Notes under the pieces: model-generated
The model's database searches: none
Seen by the model: only the letters and a program-made list of their open reading frames with translations
What the model was told of the DNA's origin: nothing
From: a virus
Reading direction: 5' to 3' (one strand)
Length of the DNA: 64,000 nucleotides
IMG/VR virus record: IMGVR_UViG_3300047089_000307
Span: 1-64,000 of that record
In this document: one piece after another, positions 1,253 through 39,241 of the stretch
How positions within the stretch are numbered: position 1 is the stretch's first letter
How the letters are laid out: each line of letters opens with the position of its first letter
Made by a program: the position numbers and the translations under genes

Positions 1253-1470
1253 CAGGGCCGGTGAGGTCGCTGCTGAGGGACGCGTGGCTCCCGCTCGCCG
1301 TGGCGCTGCTGCTGGCCGTCGCCTGGCTTGTCCTCACGTAATGGTTTGCAGTATCACGCAGTCTTCGGTACTGTTCCTTTACTAAGGCCCGGGAAGCGCC
1401 CGCGCGGGGCGTGACAGCGGCCCCTTCCCGGGCCTTCTCCCATTCCCGGTACCCGGCAAGAAGGAACGTC

Positions 1471-2226
1471 ATGACTGCACTGCACCAGGTCATCGCCATT
1501 GAGCGCGGCGTCGCGGACGACACGGACAAGCACGTCGCCGACATCAGGCGCGTGCTGGCGGTCGGCGGCGAGAACGACCCGCTGACCGGCATCTCCCGGA
1601 CGTATGAGTCCGCGCGGGAGAACGGCGATGAGCTGCCCGCGCAGGCCCGCCGGGTCCAGTTCACCGTCACGGAGCTGCTGGAGCGCGCCCAGGCGCACAT
1701 GACGCGGCTGTTCGACCTCAAGCTCACGCGCGAGTGGGGCAACTGCTCGGCCCGCGGCGACATCGTCCTGCCGGACGGTACGGTCCTGGTCCGGGACGTC
1801 CCGGCCGGTTACATGCTGTTCCTGGAGGCCCAGCTGAAGGAGCTGATCAAGCTCATCGAGCAGCTGCCGCAGCTGAACCCCGCCCTGGACTGGGACGATG
1901 AGGACCCGGCGCTGCCCGCGGGCGTGTGGAAGGCCGCGCCGAAGCGCACGGTCCGGACGATCAAGGTCCCGCAGGTCCAGGTCCTGTACGCGGCGACGGA
2001 CCACCACCCGGCGCAGGTCCGCCAGTATGACACCGACATCATCGAGGGCTACTGGACTGAGGTGAGGTTCAGCGGCCAGCTGCCCGCCCGGGAAATCCAG
2101 GCGATGCGCGCTCGCGCCACTGCGGTGCTGCACGCGGTGAAGTACGCCCGTGAGCAGGCGAACACCCTGACGGTGGACGACCGGAAGGCCGGCGAGGACA
2201 TCCTCGGGTACGTCTTCGGTGGCTGA
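1471..2226 (+). CDS. conserved actinophage hypothetical protein
   Basis: AAGGA RBS, ATG 1471, MTALHQVIAIERG N-terminus, strong codon bias. Confidence 0.8.
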   Translation: MTALHQVIAIERGVADDTDKHVADIRRVLAVGGENDPLTGISRTYESARENGDELPAQARRVQFTVTELLERAQAHMTRLFDLKLTREWGNCSARGDIVLPDGTVLVRDVPAGYMLFLEAQLKELIKLIEQLPQLNPALDWDDEDPALPAGVWKAAPKRTVRTIKVPQVQVLYAATDHHPAQVRQYDTDIIEGYWTEVRFSGQLPAREIQAMRARATAVLHAVKYAREQANTLTVDDRKAGEDILGYVFGG

Positions 2227-3647: not shown

Positions 3648-3720
3648 GGGCTGCTGGTGTAATGGCGTAGCACAAGAGCTTCCAAACCTCTTGGTCCGGG
3701 TTCGATCCCTGGGTGGCCTG
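3648..3720 (+). tRNA. tRNA-Trp(CCA)
   Basis: cloverleaf, loop TTCCAAA. Confidence 0.85.
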
Positions 3721-3845
3721 CTGGTTCCCACGCTGCACGACCGGGCTGGACGGAACCGTAACTTGATACCTCAACAGTGATGAGCAAATGCTCAGGGATC
3801 GCGGGAGGGCCTTGTGTCCGTTCGACCGGGTCTGCCTGGGCAGAT

Positions 3846-3919
3846 GGGACCTTAGCTCAGCCAGGGAGAGCACCTGCGTGGCACGCAGGGGGTCGCGGGT
3901 TCAATTCCCGCAGGTTCCA
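3846..3919 (+). tRNA. tRNA-Ala(GGC)
   Basis: CCTGC-GTGGCAC-GCAGG, G3:U70. Confidence 0.9.
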
Positions 3920-3923
3920 CTTC

Positions 3924-3995
3924 GGGCCGGTAGCTTAACGGTAGAGCGATTGCCTTGCAAGCAATTAGGCCAGGGTTCGAATCCCTGTTGGTCCA
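3924..3995 (+). tRNA. tRNA-Ala(TGC)
   Basis: ATTGC-CTTGCAA-GCAAT, G3:U70. Confidence 0.9.
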
Positions 3996-3996
3996 C

Positions 3997-4072
3997 GGCC
4001 GCGGTAGCGAGTTCGACTCTCGTCGCATCCACGCACGGGTGCGTACCTCAACGGATAGAGGACGGCACTTAT
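3997..4072 (+). ncRNA. circularly permuted tRNA-like module (T arm, closed acceptor stem, D arm)
   Basis: T arm 4007-4023; CGCATCC 4024-4030 pairs with GGGTGCG 4037-4043; D arm CCTC/GAGG. Confidence 0.75.
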
Positions 4073-4146
4073 CTAGGTATGGCGCAGTTTGGTAGCGCGC
4101 CGGGTTCGGGACTCGGAGGCCGCAGGTTCAAATCCTGCTATCTAGA
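4073..4146 (+). tRNA. tRNA-Pro(CGG)
   Basis: loop TTCGGGA. Confidence 0.9.
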
Positions 4147-4152
4147 CTTTTT

Positions 4153-4227
4153 CGGGTTGTAGCTTAGCTTGGTGAAAGCGCGCGGCTGGGGGCCGCGAGA
4201 GCGCAGGTTCGAATCCTGCCTGCCCGA
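4153..4227 (+). tRNA. tRNA-Pro(GGG)
   Basis: CGCGG-CTGGGGG-CCGCG. Confidence 0.9.
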
Positions 4228-4229
4228 CG

Positions 4230-4384
4230 AGGGAAGCAGGAAGGTGGGCTTAGAAGCAGCCATCCTTTAAAGAGCGCGGTCATGCTGCCTTTTGTCTGAG
4301 GGCGCCAGCGGTAAGAGCTGGCACGCTAGCGGGCGGAAGGGTAAACGGGGAATCGCCCTGGCGTAACAGCACACCTGTTTTCCT
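4230..4384 (+). ncRNA. ncRNA mimicking the 23S rRNA uL11-binding GTPase-associated centre (H43-H44), with insertion
   Basis: GGCTTAGAAGCAGCCATCCTTTAAAGA...GCGTAACAGC closed by an 11-bp helix 4230-4240/4374-4384. Confidence 0.75.
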
Positions 4385-4401
4385 GGAGCACCGGGAAGTT
4401 A

Positions 4402-4474
4402 CGGATACGAGGGAGACGGATAACCCGCCTGGTCTGGGGCCAGGAAAAACTCAGTTCGACCCTGAGGTATCCGA
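4402..4474 (+). tRNA. tRNA-Pro(TGG), C33
   Basis: CCTGG-TCTGGGG-CCAGG; acceptor CGGATAC/GTATCCG. Confidence 0.8.
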
Positions 4475-4549
4475 CTGAAGCGGTCCCCCGTCAGGGGGTT
4501 AAAAACGGGCGTGGCCGAGTGGCGCCGCTGTGAAAAGAACGCCCGCCAT

Positions 4550-4621
4550 GTGCCTTTGGCGTAAGGGGAAACGCGCCTGGTTGAAGCCCAGGGGTTCGCG
4601 GTTCGATTCCGTGGGGGTGCA
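4550..4621 (+). tRNA. tRNA-Phe(GAA)
   Basis: CCTGG-TTGAAGC-CCAGG. Confidence 0.85.
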
Positions 4622-4622
4622 C

Positions 4623-4693
4623 GGGGTAGTTGGTTAACGGTAAACCAAGAGCCTTCCAAGCTTTGACTGCGGGTTCGAATCCCGTCTGCCCTT
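4623..4693 (+). tRNA. tRNA-Gly(TCC)
   Basis: loop CTTCCAA. Confidence 0.9.
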
Positions 4694-4777
4694 CGGTAAA
4701 CGCTCGCAGTCAGGATAGGCGCGGTTCTTCGGGATTGCGTAATGGCCTGGCCCACTGGGAGCCAAGCGAGTGTTTAT

Positions 4778-4846
4778 GCCGCAGCGCACGGCCTGCGACT
4801 CCCCCTTCGTACGGGGGACGGCCCGGTTCGACCCCGGGTTGCGGCT
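4778..4846 (+). tRNA. tRNA-Thr(CGT), atypical D arm
   Basis: CCCCC-TTCGTAC-GGGGG; acceptor GCCGCAG/TTGCGGC. Confidence 0.7.
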
Positions 4847-4997
4847 CTGCTCGTAAGGTCACCACGCGACTGTCACAGGGAGCGCGGCCCTGAGGGGAAG
4901 CACGGCCGCTGCGAACCCGGGACTTGTTAAGCCATCCACATCACGGTCGTTAGCCGGCTGCCTCCGGGCGTGGCTCTTACACTGGCAAGTCCCATCT

Positions 4998-5068
4998 GCG
5001 CTGCAAGCATTGTGGTGATGCAGAGGACTCTTAATCCTCGGAGCGGGGTTCGATCCCCTGGTGGCGCA
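4998..5068 (+). tRNA. tRNA-Lys(CTT)
   Basis: GAGGA-CTCTTAA-TCCTC. Confidence 0.9.
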
Positions 5069-5069
5069 C

Positions 5070-5142
5070 GCGCGGCTAGTCCAATGGCAGAGGCGCCGGA
5101 CTCAAGATCCGGGCGATCCGGGTTCGAGTCCCGGGCTGCGCA
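5070..5142 (+). tRNA. tRNA-Leu(CAA), short variable arm
   Basis: CCGGA-CTCAAGA-TCCGG. Confidence 0.9.
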
Positions 5143-5146
5143 CCGT

Positions 5147-5217
5147 TTCCCTCTCGTTCAATGGCAGGACGCCTGACTCTGAATCAGGCAATTGAGGTTC
5201 GAGTCCTCGGAGGGAAG
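5147..5217 (+). tRNA. tRNA-Gln(CTG)
   Basis: CCTGA-CTCTGAA-TCAGG. Confidence 0.9.
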
Positions 5218-5222
5218 CTCAT

Positions 5223-5299
5223 GTCCGGGTAGGCAACTGGCAGACCACTCGCCTTGAGGTGGCGTGATGCTGTGGGTTCGAATCCCATCCTGGATACCA
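5223..5299 (+). tRNA. tRNA-Leu(GAG), short variable arm
   Basis: loop TTGAGGT, encoded CCA. Confidence 0.85.
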
Positions 5300-5300
5300 A

Positions 5301-5371
5301 TGCCCTCTCGTTTAACGGCAGGACGCCGGGCTTTGGCCCCGGTAGTCGAGGTTCGAATCCCCGGGGGGCAG
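5301..5371 (+). tRNA. tRNA-Gln(TTG)
   Basis: CCGGG-CTTTGGC-CCCGG. Confidence 0.9.
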
Positions 5372-5375
5372 CAGT

Positions 5376-5449
5376 GCCGCTTTAGCTCAGATGGCTAGAG
5401 CAGCCGCCTTGTAAGCGGCAGGTCGCCGGTTCGAGGCCGGCAAGCGGCT
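5376..5449 (+). tRNA. tRNA-Thr(TGT)
   Basis: loop CTTGTAA. Confidence 0.9.
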
Positions 5450-5453
5450 CCGC

Positions 5454-5526
5454 GCCTGACTAGCTCTAGCGGTAGAGCGTCGCCATGGTAAGGCGAAGGT
5501 CATCGGTTCGAATCCGATGTCAGGCT
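5454..5526 (+). tRNA. tRNA-Thr(GGT)
   Basis: TCGCC-ATGGTAA-GGCGA. Confidence 0.9.
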
Positions 5527-5530
5527 CTTT

Positions 5531-5605
5531 GCAGACGTGGCGCAACGGTAGCGTATTACCTTGCCAAGGTAATGGTTGCGGGTTCGAGTCCCGTCGTCTG
5601 CTCCA
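5531..5605 (+). tRNA. tRNA-Gly(GCC)
   Basis: loop TTGCCAA, encoded CCA. Confidence 0.9.
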
Positions 5606-5606
5606 C

Positions 5607-5691
5607 GCGCGGGTGGTTGGAATTGGCAGACACGCACGGCTCAGACCCGTGTGGCCGCAAGGTCGTGAGGGTTCGAGTCCCTCTTCGCGCA
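5607..5691 (+). tRNA. tRNA-Leu(CAG)
   Basis: loop CTCAGAC, long variable arm. Confidence 0.9.
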
Positions 5692-5747
5692 CTAGGTGAC
5701 CCGGTAAACGTGGCGCTGCCGCGGCAACCGCAATCCGGGCACTCCCT

Positions 5748-5833
5748 GGAAGGCTCGCATAGCTGGCTTATTGCGCTGCCCTGCTAAGGCAGTTCGGATA
5801 ATACCGACGCGGGTTCGAATCCCGCGCCTTCCT
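5748..5833 (+). tRNA. tRNA-Ser(GCT)
   Basis: loop CTGCTAA, long variable arm. Confidence 0.9.
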
Positions 5834-5891
5834 CTGGATTCGCGTGAGGTACCGAAATGGCGCAAGCCTGTGAAGCGTGAGTCCTTCAAAT

Positions 5892-5975
5892 GGAAGATGA
5901 ACCTGGCAGGAGTCAGGGACCGGCCGGAAACCGGTTCGGCGCGCGAGCGCTGGGATTCGAGTTCTCCGTCTTCCG
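5892..5975 (+). tRNA. tRNA-Ser(GGA), C33
   Basis: ACCGG-CCGGAAA-CCGGT, long variable arm. Confidence 0.8.
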
Positions 5976-6113
5976 CGGAGGTAGGCCGGGAAACCCTGAC
6001 AGCGGGGAGGTTGCCTGCCTGCTGCCTTGAACTCCTGGGGAGCGCGACGTACGGCTAACCCCGAATCCCGCCAGGGCACAGGACAAGGGCAACATTTCCT
6101 GTGCCCGATCCCC

Positions 6114-6195
6114 GGAAGGTACGCAGCCGGCGCTGCAACTCGCCTCGAAAGCGAGGGCGGGGTAACACCTGGGGGCTCGACACCTCTACCTTCCT
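6114..6195 (+). tRNA. tRNA-Ser(CGA)
   Basis: CTCGC-CTCGAAA-GCGAG. Confidence 0.8.
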
Positions 6196-6200
6196 CTTAC

Positions 6201-6273
6201 GGGCTCCTCGTCTAATCGGTGAGGACGCGTGTCTGATAAGCACGTAATCGGGGTTCAATTCCCTGGGGGCCTA
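6201..6273 (+). tRNA. tRNA-Ile(GAT)
   Basis: loop CTGATAA. Confidence 0.9.
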
Positions 6274-6274
6274 C

Positions 6275-6346
6275 TGGAGCGTCGTTCAATGGTAAGGACG
6301 CGCCTCTTATACGGACGTGACTCGGGTTCGATTCCCGGCGCTCCTA
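6275..6346 (+). tRNA. tRNA-Ile(TAT)
   Basis: loop CTTATAC; U1-U72 mismatch. Confidence 0.75.
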
Positions 6347-6347
6347 C

Positions 6348-6420
6348 TGGGATATAGCTTAGACGGAAGAGCGGCGGATTCATAACCCGTCAGGCCCGGG
6401 TTCGATCCCCGGTATCCCGA
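6348..6420 (+). tRNA. tRNA-Met/Ile2(CAT)
   Basis: loop TTCATAA. Confidence 0.85.
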
Positions 6421-6424
6421 CTAT

Positions 6425-6495
6425 GCCTCTTTAGCATAAGGCAGTGCAGCGGGCCTTTACCCCGCGTTGTCAGGGTTCAAGTCCCTGGGGAGGTA
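6425..6495 (+). tRNA. tRNA-Lys(TTT), C33
   Basis: GCGGG-CCTTTAC-CCCGC. Confidence 0.8.
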
Positions 6496-6496
6496 C

Positions 6497-6570
6497 TGCG
6501 CGCAGGTGTACCGGATGGTCACGCCGGCCTTCTAAGCCGAGAGGACGGGGTTCGACTCCCCGGCGCGCGA
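6497..6570 (+). tRNA. tRNA-Arg(TCT)
   Basis: loop CTTCTAA. Confidence 0.85.
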
Positions 6571-6575
6571 CTCAT

Positions 6576-6648
6576 GCTCGTGTGGACAAGCGGTGAAGTC
6601 ACCTGCCTCTCAAGCAGGAGATCCCGGGTTCAAATCCCGGTACGAGCA
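6576..6648 (+). tRNA. tRNA-Glu(CTC)
   Basis: CCTGC-CTCTCAA-GCAGG. Confidence 0.9.
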
Positions 6649-6652
6649 CGTT

Positions 6653-6745
6653 TCCAGGGAAGCGCACAGTCCGGACTGTGCTAGCGGTTCTGGCCGATCA
6701 GGAACGTATGCCGGGCGGTTCGATTCCGTCGCCGCGTTCCCTGGA
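6653..6745 (+). ncRNA. tRNA-like RNA with long closing stem and T arm but no canonical anticodon arm
   Basis: TCCAGGGAA/TTCCCTGGA closure, two hairpins, GGCGG-TTCGATT-CCGTC. Confidence 0.55.
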
Positions 6746-6752
6746 TTCATGA

Positions 6753-6823
6753 CGTCCTGTCGATCATGGGTAGGTCCCGGTCCTTTCAAGGCCGAGAACA
6801 GGGTTCGAGTCCCTGTAGGACGA
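6753..6823 (+). tRNA. tRNA-Glu(TTC)
   Basis: loop CTTTCAA. Confidence 0.85.
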
Positions 6824-6824
6824 C

Positions 6825-6902
6825 CGCGGAGTAGGGGAGCTCGGTGTCCCCGCTGGGCTCATAACCCAGAGATCGCGGGTTCAAATCCCGCCTCCGCTAC
6901 CA
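6825..6902 (+). tRNA. initiator tRNA-fMet(CAT)
   Basis: C1 mismatch, GGG/CCC anticodon stem, encoded CCA. Confidence 0.9.
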
Positions 6903-6903
6903 A

Positions 6904-6974
6904 TCTCCTATCGTTTAATGGGAGGACGAGCGGCCGTTAACCGCTTAATTCTGGTTCGAGTCCAGGTGGGAGAG
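6904..6974 (+). tRNA. tRNA-Asn(GTT), C33
   Basis: AGCGG-CCGTTAA-CCGCT. Confidence 0.85.
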
Positions 6975-7047
6975 CGGAAGCAGGAAGGGAGTACGCCTTC
7001 GCCAGGGAAGGTCTGGCACGAGAGAAGAGCCGTCCTGCTTCACCAAT

Positions 7048-7122
7048 GGGGCTATAACTCAGCCTGGTTAGAGTGCCACCTTGTCACGGTGGAAGCCGCC
7101 GGTTCAAATCCGGTTAGTCCCG
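7048..7122 (+). tRNA. tRNA-Asp(GTC)
   Basis: loop TTGTCAC. Confidence 0.9.
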
Positions 7123-7123
7123 C

Positions 7124-7198
7124 GCAGCCATGGTGAAATGGATATCATGACAGGCTACGAACCTGTCGGTCTGGGTTCGACTCCCGGTGGCTGTACCA
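7124..7198 (+). tRNA. tRNA-Arg(ACG)
   Basis: loop CTACGAA, encoded CCA. Confidence 0.9.
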
Positions 7199-7244
7199 GC
7201 GCTAACTCCGGATGGCGCTATAGAAAACGTTCCGGGGCGAGCAA

Positions 7245-7316
7245 GCCCACTTAGCTCAGAGGCAGAGCGGCTGTCCTACAAACAGCGGGCCGGGATTTCG
7301 AAATTCTCAGTGGGTA
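7245..7316 (+). tRNA. tRNA-Val(TAC), C33
   Basis: GCTGT-CCTACAA-ACAGC. Confidence 0.85.
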
Positions 7317-7336
7317 CTGCGCCGGAAGGCGCTCAT

Positions 7337-7421
7337 GGCGGCGGAAGCAGGATGGCATTATGCGTCAGGTTGTGACCCTGTGTCCGCAAGGATTCGCGGG
7401 TTCAAATCCCGTTCGTCGCCC
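7337..7421 (+). tRNA. tRNA-His(GTG) with extra variable-arm hairpin
   Basis: loop TTGTGAC, G-1, TCC-GCAA-GGA variable arm. Confidence 0.8.
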
Positions 7422-7540
7422 GTAAGCCGGGGTTGAGGGCATCCTCGTGACGGCAAGCCGGACTCAGGCAGGCTCCCGGCCCCGCAAATCGCGTTCAGCC
7501 GTGACCTGCCGGGTTCAATGGCCGCGGAAACCCTCTTTAC

Positions 7541-7622
7541 TGACGAGTATGCAAGTGGTTCAAAGCATCCGGCCTGTAAATCCGGCGCCTCGGCTTCGTG
7601 GGTTCGAATCCCTCCTCGTCAA
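7541..7622 (+). tRNA. tRNA-Tyr(GTA)
   Basis: loop CTGTAAA, long variable arm. Confidence 0.9.
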
Positions 7623-7626
7623 CCGT

Positions 7627-7711
7627 GCCCCTACCCTGGATTGGTCTCCGGCGCTTGACGGCGTGCACGCTGCCGACGCTAGTGAGTATCCGTTCGAATC
7701 GGACAGGGGCT
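7627..7711 (+). tRNA. atypical tRNA-like gene (possibly Val CAC)
   Basis: acceptor GCCCCT/AGGGGC and T arm are clear; anticodon arm ambiguous (CGGCG-TGCACGC-TGCCG). Confidence 0.45.
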
Positions 7712-7719
7712 CGATACTT

Positions 7720-7788
7720 ATCCTTGGCAGCGGACCTGCTGCCCTCCCTCCGAAGGAGAGTTACCCGGTTCGACTCCGGGCAGGGATA
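7720..7788 (+). tRNA. tRNA-Arg(CCG), atypical D arm
   Basis: CTCC-CTCCGAA-GGAG. Confidence 0.75.
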
Positions 7789-7836
7789 CGAGGGGCCTCC
7801 CCGGGGCGCTGATGACAAAGAAGTACCGGGGATCAT

Positions 7837-7909
7837 GTCGCGTTACTCTCCGGTGAGGGGGCCTGGCTGCAACCCAGGCTGACGTCCGGTTCGACCCCGG
7901 AACGCGACT
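7837..7909 (+). tRNA. tRNA-Cys(GCA)
   Basis: CCTGG-CTGCAAC-CCAGG, U73. Confidence 0.85.
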
Positions 7910-7913
7910 CTGC

Positions 7914-7985
7914 GCCCCCGCCGGCGGATTCGGTCCAGGGTTTCCTAAACCCGGGTGCCTGGTTCGACTCCAGGCGGCGGCACCA
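7914..7985 (+). tRNA. tRNA-Arg(CCT)
   Basis: loop TTCCTAA, encoded CCA. Confidence 0.75.
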
Positions 7986-8538: not shown

Positions 8539-8687
8539 AGTATGGTACAGTATCTACGAGCGTAGCCTCAGCTTCCTGATCGCTCCCGGCCGTGTTGCCG
8601 GGAATCAGCCTCGTCGTCGTCATATCGCTCCAGCTTCAGCCTCCTTGATCCGTGTGTCCTCAGGCCGCGGGCCTGCGTACCGGAAGT

Positions 8688-8762
8688 GCGGGTTCAATTC
8701 CCGCCGGCTCCTCCCGTGGAGCCGTAGCTCAATTGGCAGAGCGTCGTTACTCAAGAAAACGG
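8688..8762 (+). ncRNA. circularly permuted tRNA-like module (possible CAA anticodon arm)
   Basis: T arm 8688-8704; CGGCTCC/GGAGCCG hairpin; D arm 8727-8742. Confidence 0.75.
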
Positions 8763-8808
8763 GCCGTTCCTGATGGCAGCCAAGCGGAACAGCACTTGCG
8801 TGCTCAAT

Positions 8809-8879
8809 GAGGGTTCGAGTCCCTCCAGCGGTTCACTCGCTGTGGCGTAATCGGAAAACGCAATCGCCTTATAAGCGAT
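8809..8879 (+). ncRNA. circularly permuted tRNA-like module with TAT anticodon arm
   Basis: T arm 8809-8825; CAGCG/CGCTG; D arm GCGT/ACGC; ATCGC-CTTATAA-GCGAT. Confidence 0.7.
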
Positions 8880-8894
8880 CATAAAACGCAAACA

Positions 8895-8935
8895 GGGACC
8901 CCCGGCCAGGGTAGTGCCGGGGGTCCCGCTTTTTT
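8895..8935 (+). terminator. intrinsic terminator ending the RNA operon
   Basis: 12-bp GGGACCCCCGGC/GCCGGGGGTCCC stem plus T6. Confidence 0.9.
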
Positions 8936-36430: not shown

Positions 36431-37481
36431 TGGTGGGTCAGGCTGCATGTACTACCGGATCAAGGTCCCCCTGGAGGAGCTGGCCCGGCACGGTCATGAG
36501 GTGACCTTCCGCTCCGGCGGGAATGAGGAGGGTAACCGGCCCATCACCCTGGCGGAGATGGCCGAGCATGACGTGGTGATCGGGCAGCGGTTCAATCACT
36601 ACGCGGGCATGGGCACCTGGCGCCGCGCCCGCGGGCCGTCCAGCCGGCTGGTCTACGAGATTGATGACGACGTCTTCTCCGTGACCCCGGTCAACTGGCA
36701 GGCGTACCACGTCTACAGCCAGCCGGAGGTCCGCGAGGCTGTCATGCACCAGGCCCAGGTATCGGACCTGGTGACCGTGACCACGGAGCACCTGGCCGCG
36801 GTGATGCGCGAGCACACCGGCAACGGCAACGTCCTGGCGCTGCCGAACTGCGTCCCCGGCTGGGTGCTGGACATGGAGCGCAGGCCCCGGCAGCGCCCGG
36901 CGATCGGCTGGGCGGGCGGCGCCAGCCACGGCAGCGACGTCGGGCTGCTCGTCAGCCCCGTGCGCCGGTTCCTGAAGCGGTTCCCCGGCTGGGACTTCCA
37001 GCTTGGCGGCACGGACTTCCGGGAGACCTTCGCCCGGGAGGGGTCGCCGCGCGGGAGGCTGCTGCACGCCCGGTGGGTGCCGGTCTGCGAGGACGCGCGG
37101 GGCTATTACGAGACCGCGGACTTCGACATCGGCCTGGCCCCGCTGGCGGGAACCCCGTTTGACCTGTCGAAGTCCTGCGTCAAGGTACTGGAGTACGCGG
37201 CCCGGGGCATTCCCTCGATCGCCAGTGACTGCGAGGTTTACCGGTCGTTCATCCGCCATGGCGAGAACGGCTTCCTGGTGAAGAGGGACCATGAGTGGCT
37301 GAAGTACGCATCCGAGCTGGCCAGCGACGGGGGCCTGCGGCTGGCGATGGGCCAGGCAGCGCGGGACACGGCGCGGGAGTGGACGATCGAGGCGAATTAC
37401 CACCTATGGGAGCAGGCGTACCGGAGCCTGTTTAAGGTCAAGTCTCTTAGCGTATTATGGCCTTCGTGCGCGAGCCAGTAG
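36408..37481 (+). CDS. glycosyltransferase, GT-B/GT4-like
   Basis: YYRI, EIDDD, DIGLAPL..F..KS.VK.LEY and HGENG motifs. Confidence 0.88.
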   Translation: MRIFAGHDGGSGCMYYRIKVPLEELARHGHEVTFRSGGNEEGNRPITLAEMAEHDVVIGQRFNHYAGMGTWRRARGPSSRLVYEIDDDVFSVTPVNWQAYHVYSQPEVREAVMHQAQVSDLVTVTTEHLAAVMREHTGNGNVLALPNCVPGWVLDMERRPRQRPAIGWAGGASHGSDVGLLVSPVRRFLKRFPGWDFQLGGTDFRETFAREGSPRGRLLHARWVPVCEDARGYYETADFDIGLAPLAGTPFDLSKSCVKVLEYAARGIPSIASDCEVYRSFIRHGENGFLVKRDHEWLKYASELASDGGLRLAMGQAARDTAREWTIEANYHLWEQAYRSLFKVKSLSVLWPSCASQ

Positions 37482-39241
37482 CCAGGCAGTACCGTTACCG
37501 GGCCTATCCCGATGAGGAGCAGGCTGACCTCCTGGACTTCTACGCAGCGGGCGCCCGCGCGTTCTGGAATAAGAACGTCGCGTGGCTGCGCGCCATGGAG
37601 GGAAGTGAGGGGCATGACGACCTTGGCGCTGGCCGCCAGCTGAGCGAGGCTTACGCTTACCTCGCCAGCGTGCCCGGCATCGCTGAGGCCCTGAAGAGCA
37701 GGAAGCATCCGGAGCATGAGCGCTGGACGGCCTTCCTGCGAAAGGCAGAAAGGCCGCGCCAGCCCGGCTGGCATGCGTGGACGCGGCATTACGGGGGTGC
37801 CAGGCTCCGCGGGCAGCTGAGCGGGAACTTCTCTGCCGCCGTGCACGCTGCGCGGGAGAGCGGGATGACGTTCTGGCACGGGGGCGAGCAGCACCCGGTC
37901 TCGGCGGTCCCGTCGAAGGTCCTGCACGGGGCGTGCGGGAGCAAGGGCCAGCTCAAGGCCGCCGTGGACGCTGTCATGAAGAAGCGCGCCGCTGGCAAGC
38001 GCGCAGAGCTGCCCCGCTGGCGTGCCCGGCATGAGAGCCAGAACCTGCGCTGGCAAGTCCAGGATGGTCCCCGGAACGCGACCCGGGAGTCCCTGGTGAC
38101 GGTAACGGGCACGCGGCACGCCACCGTGCCGCTGGTAACGACGCGCGGGCACGAGGGTAATAAGAGCCTGCGCATCCGCTATCATCGCGAGCTCCCCGCG
38201 GACGCCTCAGTGTCCTTCATGCAGGTGACCTGGAATCCGGGGACCGGCTGCTACTTCGTGACGCTCACGCTGACGACCGCGCAGTACGAGGTTCCGGCCA
38301 CGACGGGCATGGCCGGCATCGACCGGGGCATCGTAAAGGCTGCTGTCACTTCGGACGGGGAGTACTACGATTCTCCGGGACTGAACCAGGGGCGCCGTCG
38401 CCGCGAGCTCCTGCTCCAGCAGTCCCTTGACTGGAAGCGCCGCGTGCTGCCGTGCAAGGGCCGGTGCGCGCACGAGCCAGGGCAGTGCTGGCGCACGTCA
38501 CTACGGTATGCACGGGTCGTGACGGCCCGGCAGCGGCTCCTGGACGCCCAGGAGGACCTCATCGATGACGGGGCGCACAAATTCTCCCGGGCTATCGCCC
38601 GCCGGTACGCGGTCGTCGTGCTTGAGGACCTGGCGAACCTGATGACGGCGTCCACGGCGAAGGGCACGGTAGCCGCCCCCGGCGTGAGCGTGCGCGCCGC
38701 CGCCGGACGCAACCGGGAGGTACGCGCGGCTAACTGGGGGCGCATTGAGCAGTACCTGGGGTATAAGGCAGGGCAGCTCCTCGGCGTCCCGGCGCCGTAT
38801 ACGTCGCGGACATGCCCGCGATGCGGGTATGTTAGCGTCATGAACCGGCCCTCCCAGGCGGAGTTCCGGTGCGGGTCCTGCGGACTCAGCGGCAACGCTG
38901 ACGTGATCGCGGCCGGCAATATCGTTAATGCAGGGAAAACCGCCCGCGCGCTGCGGGATAACGGGCAGGGATCGTCCTCCGGGATTAACCGGGGGCCTGG
39001 CGCTAGCCGGGAGCCTGCCAACACTCACAACTTTACAGTGGCCCCGGGCGAGCGCTGCGGTAGTGCGCCCGATCCCGGTCAGCGCTCGCAGGCAGGTGAG
39101 CAGCCAGGAATCGTTACCGAGCTCGACGGAACGGTGATCCCGGAGACGTGGGGCATCCCCGGTGCTCGCATCCGCGGGGGAAACCGCAGGTCACGACGGG
39201 CGAAAAAGCCGAGCGGTGGCAACACTGCCGGAGCCGGGTGA
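37457..39241 (+). CDS. cas12: TnpB-derived CRISPR-associated Cas12-like nuclease (compact type V effector); start may be GTG 37466
   Basis: YRYRAYP HTH, RuvC-I GIDRG, RuvC-II VLEDL, CPRC/CGSC Zn ribbon, RuvC-III ADVIAAGNI; abuts CRISPR array. Confidence 0.9.
   Translation: MAFVREPVARQYRYRAYPDEEQADLLDFYAAGARAFWNKNVAWLRAMEGSEGHDDLGAGRQLSEAYAYLASVPGIAEALKSRKHPEHERWTAFLRKAERPRQPGWHAWTRHYGGARLRGQLSGNFSAAVHAARESGMTFWHGGEQHPVSAVPSKVLHGACGSKGQLKAAVDAVMKKRAAGKRAELPRWRARHESQNLRWQVQDGPRNATRESLVTVTGTRHATVPLVTTRGHEGNKSLRIRYHRELPADASVSFMQVTWNPGTGCYFVTLTLTTAQYEVPATTGMAGIDRGIVKAAVTSDGEYYDSPGLNQGRRRRELLLQQSLDWKRRVLPCKGRCAHEPGQCWRTSLRYARVVTARQRLLDAQEDLIDDGAHKFSRAIARRYAVVVLEDLANLMTASTAKGTVAAPGVSVRAAAGRNREVRAANWGRIEQYLGYKAGQLLGVPAPYTSRTCPRCGYVSVMNRPSQAEFRCGSCGLSGNADVIAAGNIVNAGKTARALRDNGQGSSSGINRGPGASREPANTHNFTVAPGERCGSAPDPGQRSQAGEQPGIVTELDGTVIPETWGIPGARIRGGNRRSRRAKKPSGGNTAGAG

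What the first reader, a model, noticed from the sequence alone, without database searches (positions are those of the whole stretch)
3997..4072. Circularly permuted tRNA with the break in the anticodon loop
Seen: between tRNA-Ala(TGC) and tRNA-Pro(CGG) the 3' half comes first (GGCCG, T arm GCGAG-TTCGACT-CTCGT, CGCATCC-A). A 5-nt linker and the 5' half follow (GGGTGCG, D arm CCTC/GAGG, CGGC). Acceptor strands pair over 7 bp with G3:U70 and A73 (AlaRS determinants); CGGC/GCCG closes the anticodon stem, but there is no intact anticodon. Established: permuted tRNA genes are known from some algae and archaea, and bacterial YrlA Y-RNAs have the same T-acceptor-D order. No Ro60-binding stem or TROVE gene is visible here. 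Inference: an anticodon-less tRNA mimic or decoy, or a two-piece chargeable RNA.
Basis: partly seen in the sequence, partly recalled or inferred. Interest (0 to 1): 0.8.

Follow-up and report, generated by a model that had tools for sequence, protein, structure and literature searches.

The report
Handle-less permuted tRNA mimic in phage
Among the roughly 35 tRNA genes of an uncultured soil-type phage lies a 76-base element built like a tRNA turned inside out, with a sealed acceptor end, an open anticodon stem and alanine-type identity marks; it is a stripped-down, so far one-of-a-kind variant of the known Y-RNA-like tRNA mimics, and nothing yet shows whether it does anything.

Summary
Bases 3997-4072 fold into a 4-bp closing stem, a T arm, a loop-closed 7-bp acceptor helix (G3:U70, A73) and a D arm. 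The element fills the gap between tRNA-Ala(UGC) and tRNA-Pro(CGG).

It is the tRNA-like "head" of the YrlA class. Rfam YrlA matches only the core, at 31.6 bits against a gathering score of 69. A model I built from 50 heads of DUF7873-associated RNAs gives 46.2 bits; the best tRNA-tRNA junction artefact gives 38.5.

It lacks what defines those families. It has no basal handle or Ro-binding motif. The 158-kb record (about 75% complete) holds no TROVE or DUF2828 gene. The acceptor loop has no encoded CCA.

It is also a singleton. The closest relative has only 4 nt at the syntenic site. No sequence homologue exists in four collections. None of 47 strict modules in 80 viral loci is squeezed between tRNAs this way.

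My best reading (0.45) is a tRNA-sized mimic released by tRNA processing and probably split by RNase P, as M. smegmatis YrlA is. The main rival (0.38) is a neutral rearrangement product of tRNA-Ala-like genes.

This scan has reported related in-array mimics and the DUF7873 RNA many times on other DNA. I rate it a new variant of a known kind, of moderate interest.

The parts
3997..4072 (+). The whole element (called E1 here): 76 nt, the size of a tRNA, in the order 3' half, linker, 5' half
   Evidence: Sequence; fold; YrlA core hit at 3999-4068; R1 hit at 3998-4068 with 46.2 bits
3998..4001 (+). 5' strand of the closing stem (GCCG), equivalent to tRNA positions 40-43; it pairs with 4063-4066
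   Evidence: MFE structure
4007..4023 (+). T arm GCGAG-TTCGACT-CTCGT, with a G53:C61 pair and a T54-T55-C56-A58 type loop
4024..4043 (+). Loop-closed acceptor helix: CGCATCC (positions 66-72), A73, linker CGCAC, GGGTGCG (positions 1-7). It has 7 bp with G3:U70. The predicted RNase P site is 4036|4037.
   Evidence: The RNase P site is inferred from M. smegmatis YrlA (PMC4201824).
4046..4061 (+). D arm CCTC-AACGGATA-GAGG, preceded by T8 and A9
4063..4072 (+). 3' strand of the closing stem (CGGC), then A31 and CTTAT, which read like anticodon-loop positions 32-36. The tail ends where tRNA-Pro begins.
3924..3996 (+). Upstream tRNA-Ala(UGC). Its 3' processing would define the 5' end of E1. A3995 and C3996 are its A73 and C74.
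4073..4147 (+). Downstream tRNA-Pro(CGG). RNase P cleavage at its 5' end would define the 3' end of E1.
8662..8769 (+). Related element E2: the same T arm, closed acceptor and D arm head, but mounted on an outer stem. It is head 1 of this phage's DUF7873-type RNA.
   Evidence: YrlA full-length hit at 38.2 bits; fold; R1 at 68.1 bits
8797..8892 (+). Related element E3: a second head with a 6-bp closed acceptor, plus an anticodon-like arm ATCGC-CTTATAA-GCGAT. A GC-rich hairpin with a T run at about 8903-8935, read by eye as a terminator, follows.
   Evidence: R1 32.9 bits; the scan did not list this hairpin
1411..2226 (+). DUF7873 gene. This protein family is almost always followed by a tRNA-mimic RNA of this class.
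   Evidence: Pfam PF25283, E 1.3e-77; association

Best explanation
E1 is a real structured RNA module derived from tRNA. It is the 'head' of a YrlA-type tRNA mimic (T arm, loop-closed acceptor helix, D arm) with the usual protein-binding handle reduced to a 4-bp stem, and it occupies one tRNA-sized slot in the phage's tRNA operon.

How it would work (all steps inferred):
1. It is transcribed with the array.
2. Its 3' end is made by RNase P cutting at the 5' end of tRNA-Pro (4072|4073). Its 5' end is made by 3' maturation of tRNA-Ala (after 3995/3996).
3. It has a full 7-bp acceptor helix stacked on a 5-bp T stem, so RNase P probably also cuts at 4036|4037.
4. After trimming of CGCAC and CCA addition, the result would be two base-paired halves with a free alanine-type acceptor end (G1:C72, G2:C71, G3:U70, A73) and no usable anticodon.

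Such an RNA could occupy or titrate proteins that read the tRNA elbow or acceptor end. It cannot decode.

Shown here: the fold, its class and its placement. Inferred: transcription, processing, CCA addition, charging and any role as a decoy.
For: - All four helices are perfect (20 bp, no mismatch). The tertiary hallmarks U8, A14, G18-G19, A21, G53:C61 and the T-loop TTCGA are present.
- The Rfam YrlA core hit scores 31.6 bits.
- Model R1, built without E1 from 50 heads, scores E1 at 46.2 bits. Junction artefacts score at most 38.5.
- The same head fold in the related RNA family shows heavy covariation. All 7 acceptor pairs change on both sides, with 194 doubly changed cells against 52 in shuffles. 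Handle, T arm, acceptor and D arm helices all covary.
- In that family the acceptor loop keeps tRNA-gene end features. N-CCA is present in 43 of 85 modules, C74 in 76 of 85, U at -1 in 56 of 85 and G1 in 74 of 85. This argues that such loops are cut by RNase P.
- The published precedent is M. smegmatis YrlA, which has a 7-bp acceptor helix, is cleaved by M1 RNA in vitro, and is cleaved and CCA-tailed in vivo (PMC4201824).
- E1 has C74 after A73, as every tRNA of this array has.
- G3:U70 in this array is otherwise found only in the two tRNA-Ala genes and one odd tRNA-Phe.
- Orphan T arms elsewhere in the array sit inside complete noncanonical cloverleaves, so the array shows no obvious fragments.
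- In-array mimics flanked by tRNAs recur elsewhere, for example L160:19321-19473 and in earlier scan notes.
Against: - E1 is a singleton. The closest available relative (DUF7873 71% identical, same gene order Trp-Ala-Ala-Pro-Pro) has 4 nt where E1 sits, and R1 finds no third head there.
- There is no sequence homologue in the phage records, viral contigs or species genomes. Selection on E1 itself therefore cannot be shown.
- None of 47 strict modules in 80 viral DUF7873 loci (692 tRNAs) is handle-less and squeezed between tRNAs.
- There is no encoded CCA, the -1 base is C rather than the usual U, and the 15:48 tertiary pair would be A-A.
- The linker looks like an ordinary inter-tRNA spacer. 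That fits an origin as the junction of two tandem tRNA copies.
- No expression data are available.
Confidence: 0.45

Rival explanations
1. E1 is a neutral rearrangement product. It is what remains of two tandem copies of a tRNA-Ala-like gene: the 3' half of copy 1, the normal spacer, and the 5' half of copy 2, after the outer halves were lost. It is processed as junk and has no role.
For: - It sits in the Ala cluster of the array and has an Ala-type acceptor (GGG..., G3:U70, A73), like its two upstream neighbours.
- Its linker, A73 + C + 4 nt, is indistinguishable from the array's ordinary spacers.
- It is absent at the syntenic site of the nearest relative.
- It has no homologue anywhere searched.
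- No second example of the handle-less in-array layout turned up in 80 viral loci.
- G3:U70 is not a feature of the mimic family (5 of 85 modules). This points to a tRNA-Ala ancestry rather than a copied head.
Against: - Two independent deletions would both have to end inside the anticodon loop, a few per cent at best, so that the two stem strands still close.
- No intact donor tRNA with this acceptor sequence remains in the array; the best half-matches are only generic. The event is therefore not obviously recent, yet all 20 base pairs are intact.
- No other fragmentary tRNAs are evident in the array.
Confidence: 0.38
2. E1 is a true circularly permuted (split) tRNA gene. Its ends are joined to close the anticodon loop and the acceptor linker is removed, giving a decoding tRNA with anticodon UAU and alanine identity.
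For: - The tail CTTAT matches positions 32-36 of a canonical loop (C32 U33 U34 A35 U36).
- Joining 4037-4072 to 3995-4031 in silico gives a canonical cloverleaf with the loop CUUAUAC, which ARAGORN calls tRNA-Ile(tat).
- RNase P and RNase Z would leave 3'-OH and 5'-P ends facing each other across a stem, which is the chemistry that Rnl-type ligases seal (established enzymology; inference here).
Against: - The two bases needed to complete a 7-nt loop (A3995, C3996) are the A73 and C74 of tRNA-Ala. Without them the loop is 5 to 6 nt and ARAGORN's call fails or is ambiguous.
- The 31:39 position is an A-G mismatch.
- The 158-kb record has no RtcB, Rnl2-type or Rnl1-type ligase. The Rnl1 search had no positive control.
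- The papers I could search describe no such pathway for bacteria or phages.
Confidence: 0.03
3. E1 is a free third head that acts on the phage's DUF7873 RNA-protein system. It would bind the same partner as heads E2 and E3 and so tune or compete with that particle.
For: - The DUF7873 gene lies 1.8 kb upstream on the same strand.
- A head RNA is present in 53 of 80 metagenomic DUF7873 loci, with 54 of 56 strict modules on the gene strand and nearly all starting about 230-300 nt after the DUF7873 stop; 46 of 47 modules in the viral loci are on the gene strand.
- No other protein family is conserved next to DUF7873.
- R1, built from those heads, scores E1 at 46.2 bits.
Against: - E1 lacks the conserved handle, including the internal loop ATCGAAC / CTTAAACG seen, which is the likeliest protein-binding part.
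- The relative with the same system has no third head.
- Nothing indicates which part of the RNA DUF7873 binds. The AF2 model (pLDDT 93.8) has no informative structural match.
Confidence: 0.08

Closest known systems
YrlA (Y RNA-like A, Rfam RF02553), especially M. smegmatis YrlA (Chen et al. 2014, PMC4201824)
   Same: Both have the module order T arm, loop-closed acceptor-like helix, D arm. Both keep tRNA tertiary hallmarks. The M. smegmatis RNA also has a 7-bp acceptor helix; RNase P cuts it and it then receives CCA.
   Different: E1 has no Ro-binding basal helix and no GNCGAAN0-1G motif. No TROVE gene is in the record. It scores 31.6 bits against a gathering score of 69 and matches only model positions 23-88. 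It sits between two tRNAs in a tRNA operon and has alanine identity marks.
DUF7873-associated tRNA-mimic RNA, usually two-headed
   Same: The head architecture is the same, and a model built from 50 such heads scores E1 at 46.2 bits. This phage carries both the DUF7873 gene and the two-headed RNA (8662-8935).
   Different: E1 has no handle and no conserved ATCGAAC / CTTAAACG internal loop. Its acceptor loop has no N-CCA. It does not lie directly after the DUF7873 gene. G3:U70 is rare in that family.
Circularly permuted tRNA genes of Cyanidioschyzon merolae and some other algae and archaea (from my own knowledge: Soma et al. 2007)
   Same: The 3' half precedes the 5' half, the acceptor strands are joined by a short intervening sequence, and the break is in the anticodon loop.
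   Different: Those genes restore a complete anticodon loop through a bulge-helix-bulge splicing endonuclease and a ligase. Here the loop is one or two bases short, no such motif or enzyme is evident, and the host is bacterial.
Two-piece (permuted) tmRNA (Rfam RF04321; from my own knowledge: Keiler et al. 2000)
   Same: The gene order is permuted, with T arm and 3' acceptor strand first. Both have G3:U70 alanine identity. An internal linker is removed to free a CCA end.
   Different: E1 has no room for a tag reading frame or pseudoknots. ARAGORN finds no tmRNA. E1 has a normal D arm. There is no RF04321 hit on E1.

Membership tests
YrlA (RF02553) | tRNA-like domain in the order T arm, closed acceptor-like stem, D arm | tested here: met
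   Fold; cmscan alignment to model positions 23-88
YrlA (RF02553) | Score at or above Rfam's gathering threshold (69 bits) over the full model | tested here: not met
   31.6 bits, core only
YrlA (RF02553) | Basal helix with the Rsr-binding motif GNCGAAN0-1G near the 5' end | tested here: not met
   Only a 4-bp stem is present. tRNA-Ala ends 1-2 nt upstream and tRNA-Pro starts 6 nt downstream, so there is no room.
YrlA (RF02553) | Encoded within about 4 kb of a Ro60/TROVE gene on the same strand (criterion of Chen et al. 2014) | tested here: not met
   PF05731 finds nothing in the 158-kb record, and tblastn with a phage Rsr finds nothing. The record is only about 75% complete.
DUF7873-associated tRNA-mimic RNA | Head with a covarying T arm, 7-bp closed acceptor and D arm | tested here: met
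   R1 gives 46.2 bits, E about 3e-12.
DUF7873-associated tRNA-mimic RNA | Long handle with the conserved internal loop (ATCGAAC / CTTAAACG) | tested here: not met
   The handle is seen in the family alignment and is absent around E1.
DUF7873-associated tRNA-mimic RNA | Starts about 230-300 nt downstream of the DUF7873 stop codon | tested here: not met
   E1 lies 1.8 kb downstream, with two ORFs and three tRNAs in between.
Permuted tRNA gene (C. merolae type) | 3' half upstream of 5' half, with complementary acceptor strands | tested here: met
Permuted tRNA gene (C. merolae type) | Joining the transcript ends restores a canonical 7-nt anticodon loop | tested here: inconclusive
   A canonical loop CUUAUAC forms only if A73 and C74 of the upstream tRNA-Ala are included. 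Otherwise the loop is 5-6 nt.
Permuted tRNA gene (C. merolae type) | An end-joining machinery (splicing endonuclease motif or RNA ligase) is available | tested here: not met
   The record has no RtcB, RNA_ligase or RNA_lig_T4_1. Host enzymes are unknown, and the Rnl1 search lacked a positive control.
Two-piece tmRNA | Tag reading frame and pseudoknots downstream of the 5' acceptor strand | tested here: not met
   A D arm and then tRNA-Pro follow directly. ARAGORN calls no tmRNA.
AlaRS substrate (tRNA-Ala / minihelix-Ala identity) | G3:U70 in a 7-bp acceptor helix, with A73 and a free CCA end | tested here: inconclusive
   G3:U70 and A73 are present. The free CCA end would need RNase P cleavage, trimming and CCA addition, none of which can be tested with these tools.

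The most novel reading that the evidence does not exclude
E1 is a functional stand-alone tRNA 'head' with no handle. It is released by the neighbouring tRNAs' processing and split by RNase P in its acceptor loop. It then receives CCA and is charged by AlaRS. The result would be a phage-made, two-piece, anticodon-less alanyl-RNA that acts as a decoy or donor for host factors that read the acceptor end. It would be the first Y-RNA-like module shown to work without any Ro-type handle or partner.
Probability: 0.12. Interest if true: 0.75.

Novelty: new variant of a known kind. Interest (0 to 1): 0.45.

Why it matters
tRNA-like heads of bacterial and phage Y-type RNAs are widespread, but what the head does is unknown. 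A natural head without its handle, placed so that tRNA enzymes would excise it and carrying a complete alanine acceptor identity, would be a clean test case. It would show whether the head alone is a substrate for RNase P, the CCA-adding enzyme and AlaRS, and whether phages use such RNAs against tRNA-directed host factors.

If it proves to be debris, it still documents how permuted tRNA-like modules can arise inside phage tRNA arrays. That bears on the origin of YrlA-type RNAs, which Chen et al. proposed to be tRNA-derived.

Tried and rejected
- **Close homologues of E1.** I found none. Searches run:
  - megablast and blastn against phage records;
  - exact and degenerate patterns in viral contigs;
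  - a degenerate pattern in species genomes.
- **Syntenic orthologue.** The nearest relative found (L012, L013, L095) has no E1. Whole metagenome records could not be searched because they are not held.
- **Ro60-type partner.** TROVE and DUF2828 are absent from this record and from two related, near-complete records.
- **RNA repair or maturation genes.** RtcB, Rnl2-type ligase, Rnl1-type ligase and CCA-adding enzyme were not found.
- **Donor tRNA.** Aligning each half of E1 to all 34 array tRNAs gave only generic similarity. The best matches were Ile(tat) and Ala(tgc).
- **tmRNA reading.** Rejected: there is no tag frame and no ARAGORN tmRNA call.
- **tRNA-tRNA junction artefact.** Rejected: no tRNA overlaps E1, and the junctions score lower with broken acceptor pairs.
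- **DUF7873 fold.** The model is confident (pLDDT 93.8), but Foldseek against PDB and BFVD and VIA-align gave nothing informative. The top Z was 8.9, on helical designs.
- **Host.** The capsid protein has no relative above 34% identity among isolated phages, so I make no host claim.
- **Promoter and terminator scan.** Nothing sets E1 apart from the operon.

Full report
**What is there.**
The window is the first 64 kb of a 158,651-bp IMG/VR virus record (CheckV about 75% complete, GC about 68%). It encodes a portal protein and an HK97-type capsid protein. Its capsid has no relative above 34% identity among isolated phages, so I leave the host open.

Bases 3648-7985 hold 33 ARAGORN tRNAs, plus more noncanonical ones, all on the + strand. 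The element under study (E1, 3997-4072) fills the 77-nt interval between tRNA-Ala(tgc) and tRNA-Pro(cgg).

- a 4-bp closing stem, GCCG/CGGC;
- a 5-nt variable stretch;
- the T arm GCGAG-TTCGACT-CTCGT;
- a 7-bp acceptor helix, CGCATCC/GGGTGCG, closed by A73 + CGCAC;
- U8 and A9, then the D arm CCTC-AACGGATA-GAGG.

The helices contain no mismatch.

**More than chance, and not a junction artefact.**
YrlA-type models are known to fire on the junction of two adjacent tRNAs (PMC4201824), and they do so here at lower scores. E1 differs in three ways. No tRNA overlaps it. Its two acceptor strands pair with each other 7/7. A strict structural filter finds only E1 and a second element (8688-8742) in the whole record on both strands.

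**What class it belongs to.**
Rfam's YrlA model matches E1 at 31.6 bits over model positions 23-88, which is the tRNA-like core only. The gathering score is 69. The same record has a full-length but weak YrlA-like match at 8662-8769 (38.2 bits) and a partial one at 8808-8861.

Following the neighbouring DUF7873 gene (1411-2226) into public contigs showed that this protein family is almost always followed by an RNA with the same head:
- In 80 metagenomic loci, 54 of 56 strict modules lie on the gene strand, nearly all of them starting about 230-300 nt after the DUF7873 stop.
- In 80 viral loci, 46 of 47 lie on the gene strand.
- No other protein family is conserved beside DUF7873.
- A TROVE gene is nearby in only two of these contigs.

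The family has a conserved handle with an ATCGAAC / CTTAAACG internal loop, and every helix covaries. One caveat applies: my sample was selected for perfect pairing, so it is the variety of pair types, not the percentage paired, that carries the evidence.

This agrees with many earlier notes of this scan on other DNA. It is therefore not new to the scan.

A covariance model built from 50 such heads, with E1 excluded, gives these scores:

| Element | R1 score (bits) |
|---|---|
| E2 | 68.1 |
| E1 | 46.2 |
| Best tRNA-tRNA junction artefact | 38.5 |
| E3 | 32.9 |

**What E1 lacks.**
E1 has no handle, because tRNAs abut it on both sides. It has no Ro-binding motif. The record has no TROVE or DUF2828 gene. 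E1 has no N-CCA in its acceptor loop. It does not lie directly after the DUF7873 gene. It therefore fails the defining tests of both YrlA and the DUF7873 RNA, while sharing their head.

**Is it conserved?**
I could not show this. The nearest relative available (DUF7873 71% identical) has the gene order Trp, Ala(ggc), an Ala(tgc)-like gene, Pro(cgg), Pro(ggg), Pro(tgg), Phe and so on. At the syntenic site it has only 4 nt between the Ala(tgc)-like gene and Pro(cgg). Its two heads lie upstream of the array, and R1 finds no third head.

No sequence homologue of E1 exists in the phage records, viral contigs or species genomes. Among 692 tRNAs in 80 viral loci, no strict module is squeezed between tRNAs without a handle. 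The nearest case, L160:19321-19473, fills a whole inter-tRNA spacer but keeps an 11-bp outer stem.

**Likely origin.**
E1 sits in the array's Ala cluster. Its acceptor end (GGG..., G3:U70, A73) resembles those of the two tRNA-Ala genes. G3:U70 otherwise occurs only in one odd tRNA-Phe and in 5 of 85 family heads.

Every tRNA in the array is followed by C74, and most spacers are 1-7 nt. E1's linker (A73, C, then GCAC) looks like one of these spacers.

The simplest history is the junction of two tandem tRNA-Ala-like copies whose outer halves were lost. No intact donor remains.

**How it would work.**
RNase P at 4072|4073 and 3' maturation of tRNA-Ala would release a 76-77-nt RNA. Chen et al. showed that M. 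smegmatis YrlA is cut by M1 RNA in vitro and is cut and CCA-tailed in vivo. Among the Y RNAs they tested, it alone has a 7-bp acceptor helix.

In the DUF7873 family the acceptor loops keep the end features of tRNA genes:
- N-CCA in 43 of 85 modules;
- C74 in 76 of 85;
- U at position -1 in 56 of 85;
- G1 in 74 of 85.

This argues that such loops are generally opened. By that analogy E1 should be cut at 4036|4037, trimmed and CCA-tailed, giving two annealed halves with an alanine-type acceptor end. AlaRS reads G3:U70 without needing the anticodon (established knowledge; not tested here). All of these steps are inference.

**The permuted-tRNA reading.**
The tail CTTAT matches loop positions 32-36. 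If A3995 and C3996 are included, the un-permuted sequence is a canonical tRNA with the loop CUUAUAC, and ARAGORN calls it Ile(tat).

Those two bases, however, are the A73 and C74 of tRNA-Ala. Without them the loop is too short. Position 31:39 is an A-G mismatch. No RNA ligase is encoded in the record. I keep this reading at about 3%.

**Verdict.**
E1 is a handle-less, in-array, alanine-type variant of the YrlA-class tRNA mimic. I put the odds at roughly even between a maintained mimic and a well-preserved rearrangement product. It is a new variant of a known kind, of moderate interest.

Noticed in passing
window 4238-4290 (in the 322-nt gap 4228-4549): Rfam's archaeal LSU rRNA model matches here at 29.8 bits, E 5e-6, model positions 1180-1233. 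The sequence GGCTTAGAAGCAGCCATC.TTTAAAGA resembles the 23S GTPase-associated centre (the uL11 site). It looks like an rRNA-piece mimic inside the tRNA array.
   Followed up: partly
window 8662-8935: The phage's DUF7873-type two-headed RNA is here: E2 at 8662-8769 and E3 at about 8797-8892, followed by what reads by eye as a terminator hairpin (about 8903-8935). It lies 6.4 kb from the DUF7873 gene, with the whole tRNA array between them. In the relative L012/L095 the two heads lie upstream of the array instead. E3 carries an anticodon-like arm with the loop CTTATAA.
   Followed up: partly
loci L011-L172 (DUF7873 neighbourhoods): In 85 distinct heads next to DUF7873, the acceptor loop keeps tRNA-gene end features: N-CCA in 43, C74 in 76, U at -1 in 56 and G1 in 74. 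This suggests the closed acceptor loops are opened by RNase P to expose a CCA end. DUF7873 folds confidently (pLDDT 93.8) but matches no solved or viral predicted structure.
   Followed up: partly
window 4550-4621: The tRNA with the Phe anticodon GAA has a G3:U70 pair and A73, the main AlaRS identity marks. Its counterpart in the relative L012 has C3:G70. It may be a dual-identity or mischarging tRNA.
   Followed up: partly
window 7722-7790: A tRNA-shaped element that neither ARAGORN nor Rfam calls. It has the acceptor TATCCTT/AGGGATA, a 6-bp hairpin in place of the D arm, an anticodon loop CTCCGAA (anticodon CCG, Arg) and a normal T arm. Arg(CCG) is otherwise missing from the array.
   Followed up: no
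window 6653-6745: A tRNA-like element between the two tRNA-Glu genes. It has an 8-bp closing helix CCAGGGAA/TTCCCTGG, two hairpins and a canonical T arm (6714-6730), and no recognisable anticodon.
   Followed up: no
window 3648-7985: Nearly every tRNA gene in the array is followed by C at position 74, sometimes CC, but only four of 33 (Leu-gag, Gly-gcc, Met2, Arg-acg) are followed by a full CCA. The record has no CCA-adding enzyme gene, so these tRNAs would depend on the host enzyme.
   Followed up: partly
window 37457-39241: A 594-aa ORF has IS605 OrfB / Cas12f1-like TNB domains. It is a TnpB-type element inside the phage's structural region.
   Followed up: no
L005:10830-12570 (same contig as L085 and L107): A complete 115-kb phage carries five T arm, closed acceptor, D arm modules between its DUF7873 gene and a 554-aa TROVE/Rsr gene. 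Several of them have a (G/C)GCGAAG motif upstream. Both partner proteins therefore occur at one RNA locus.
   Followed up: partly
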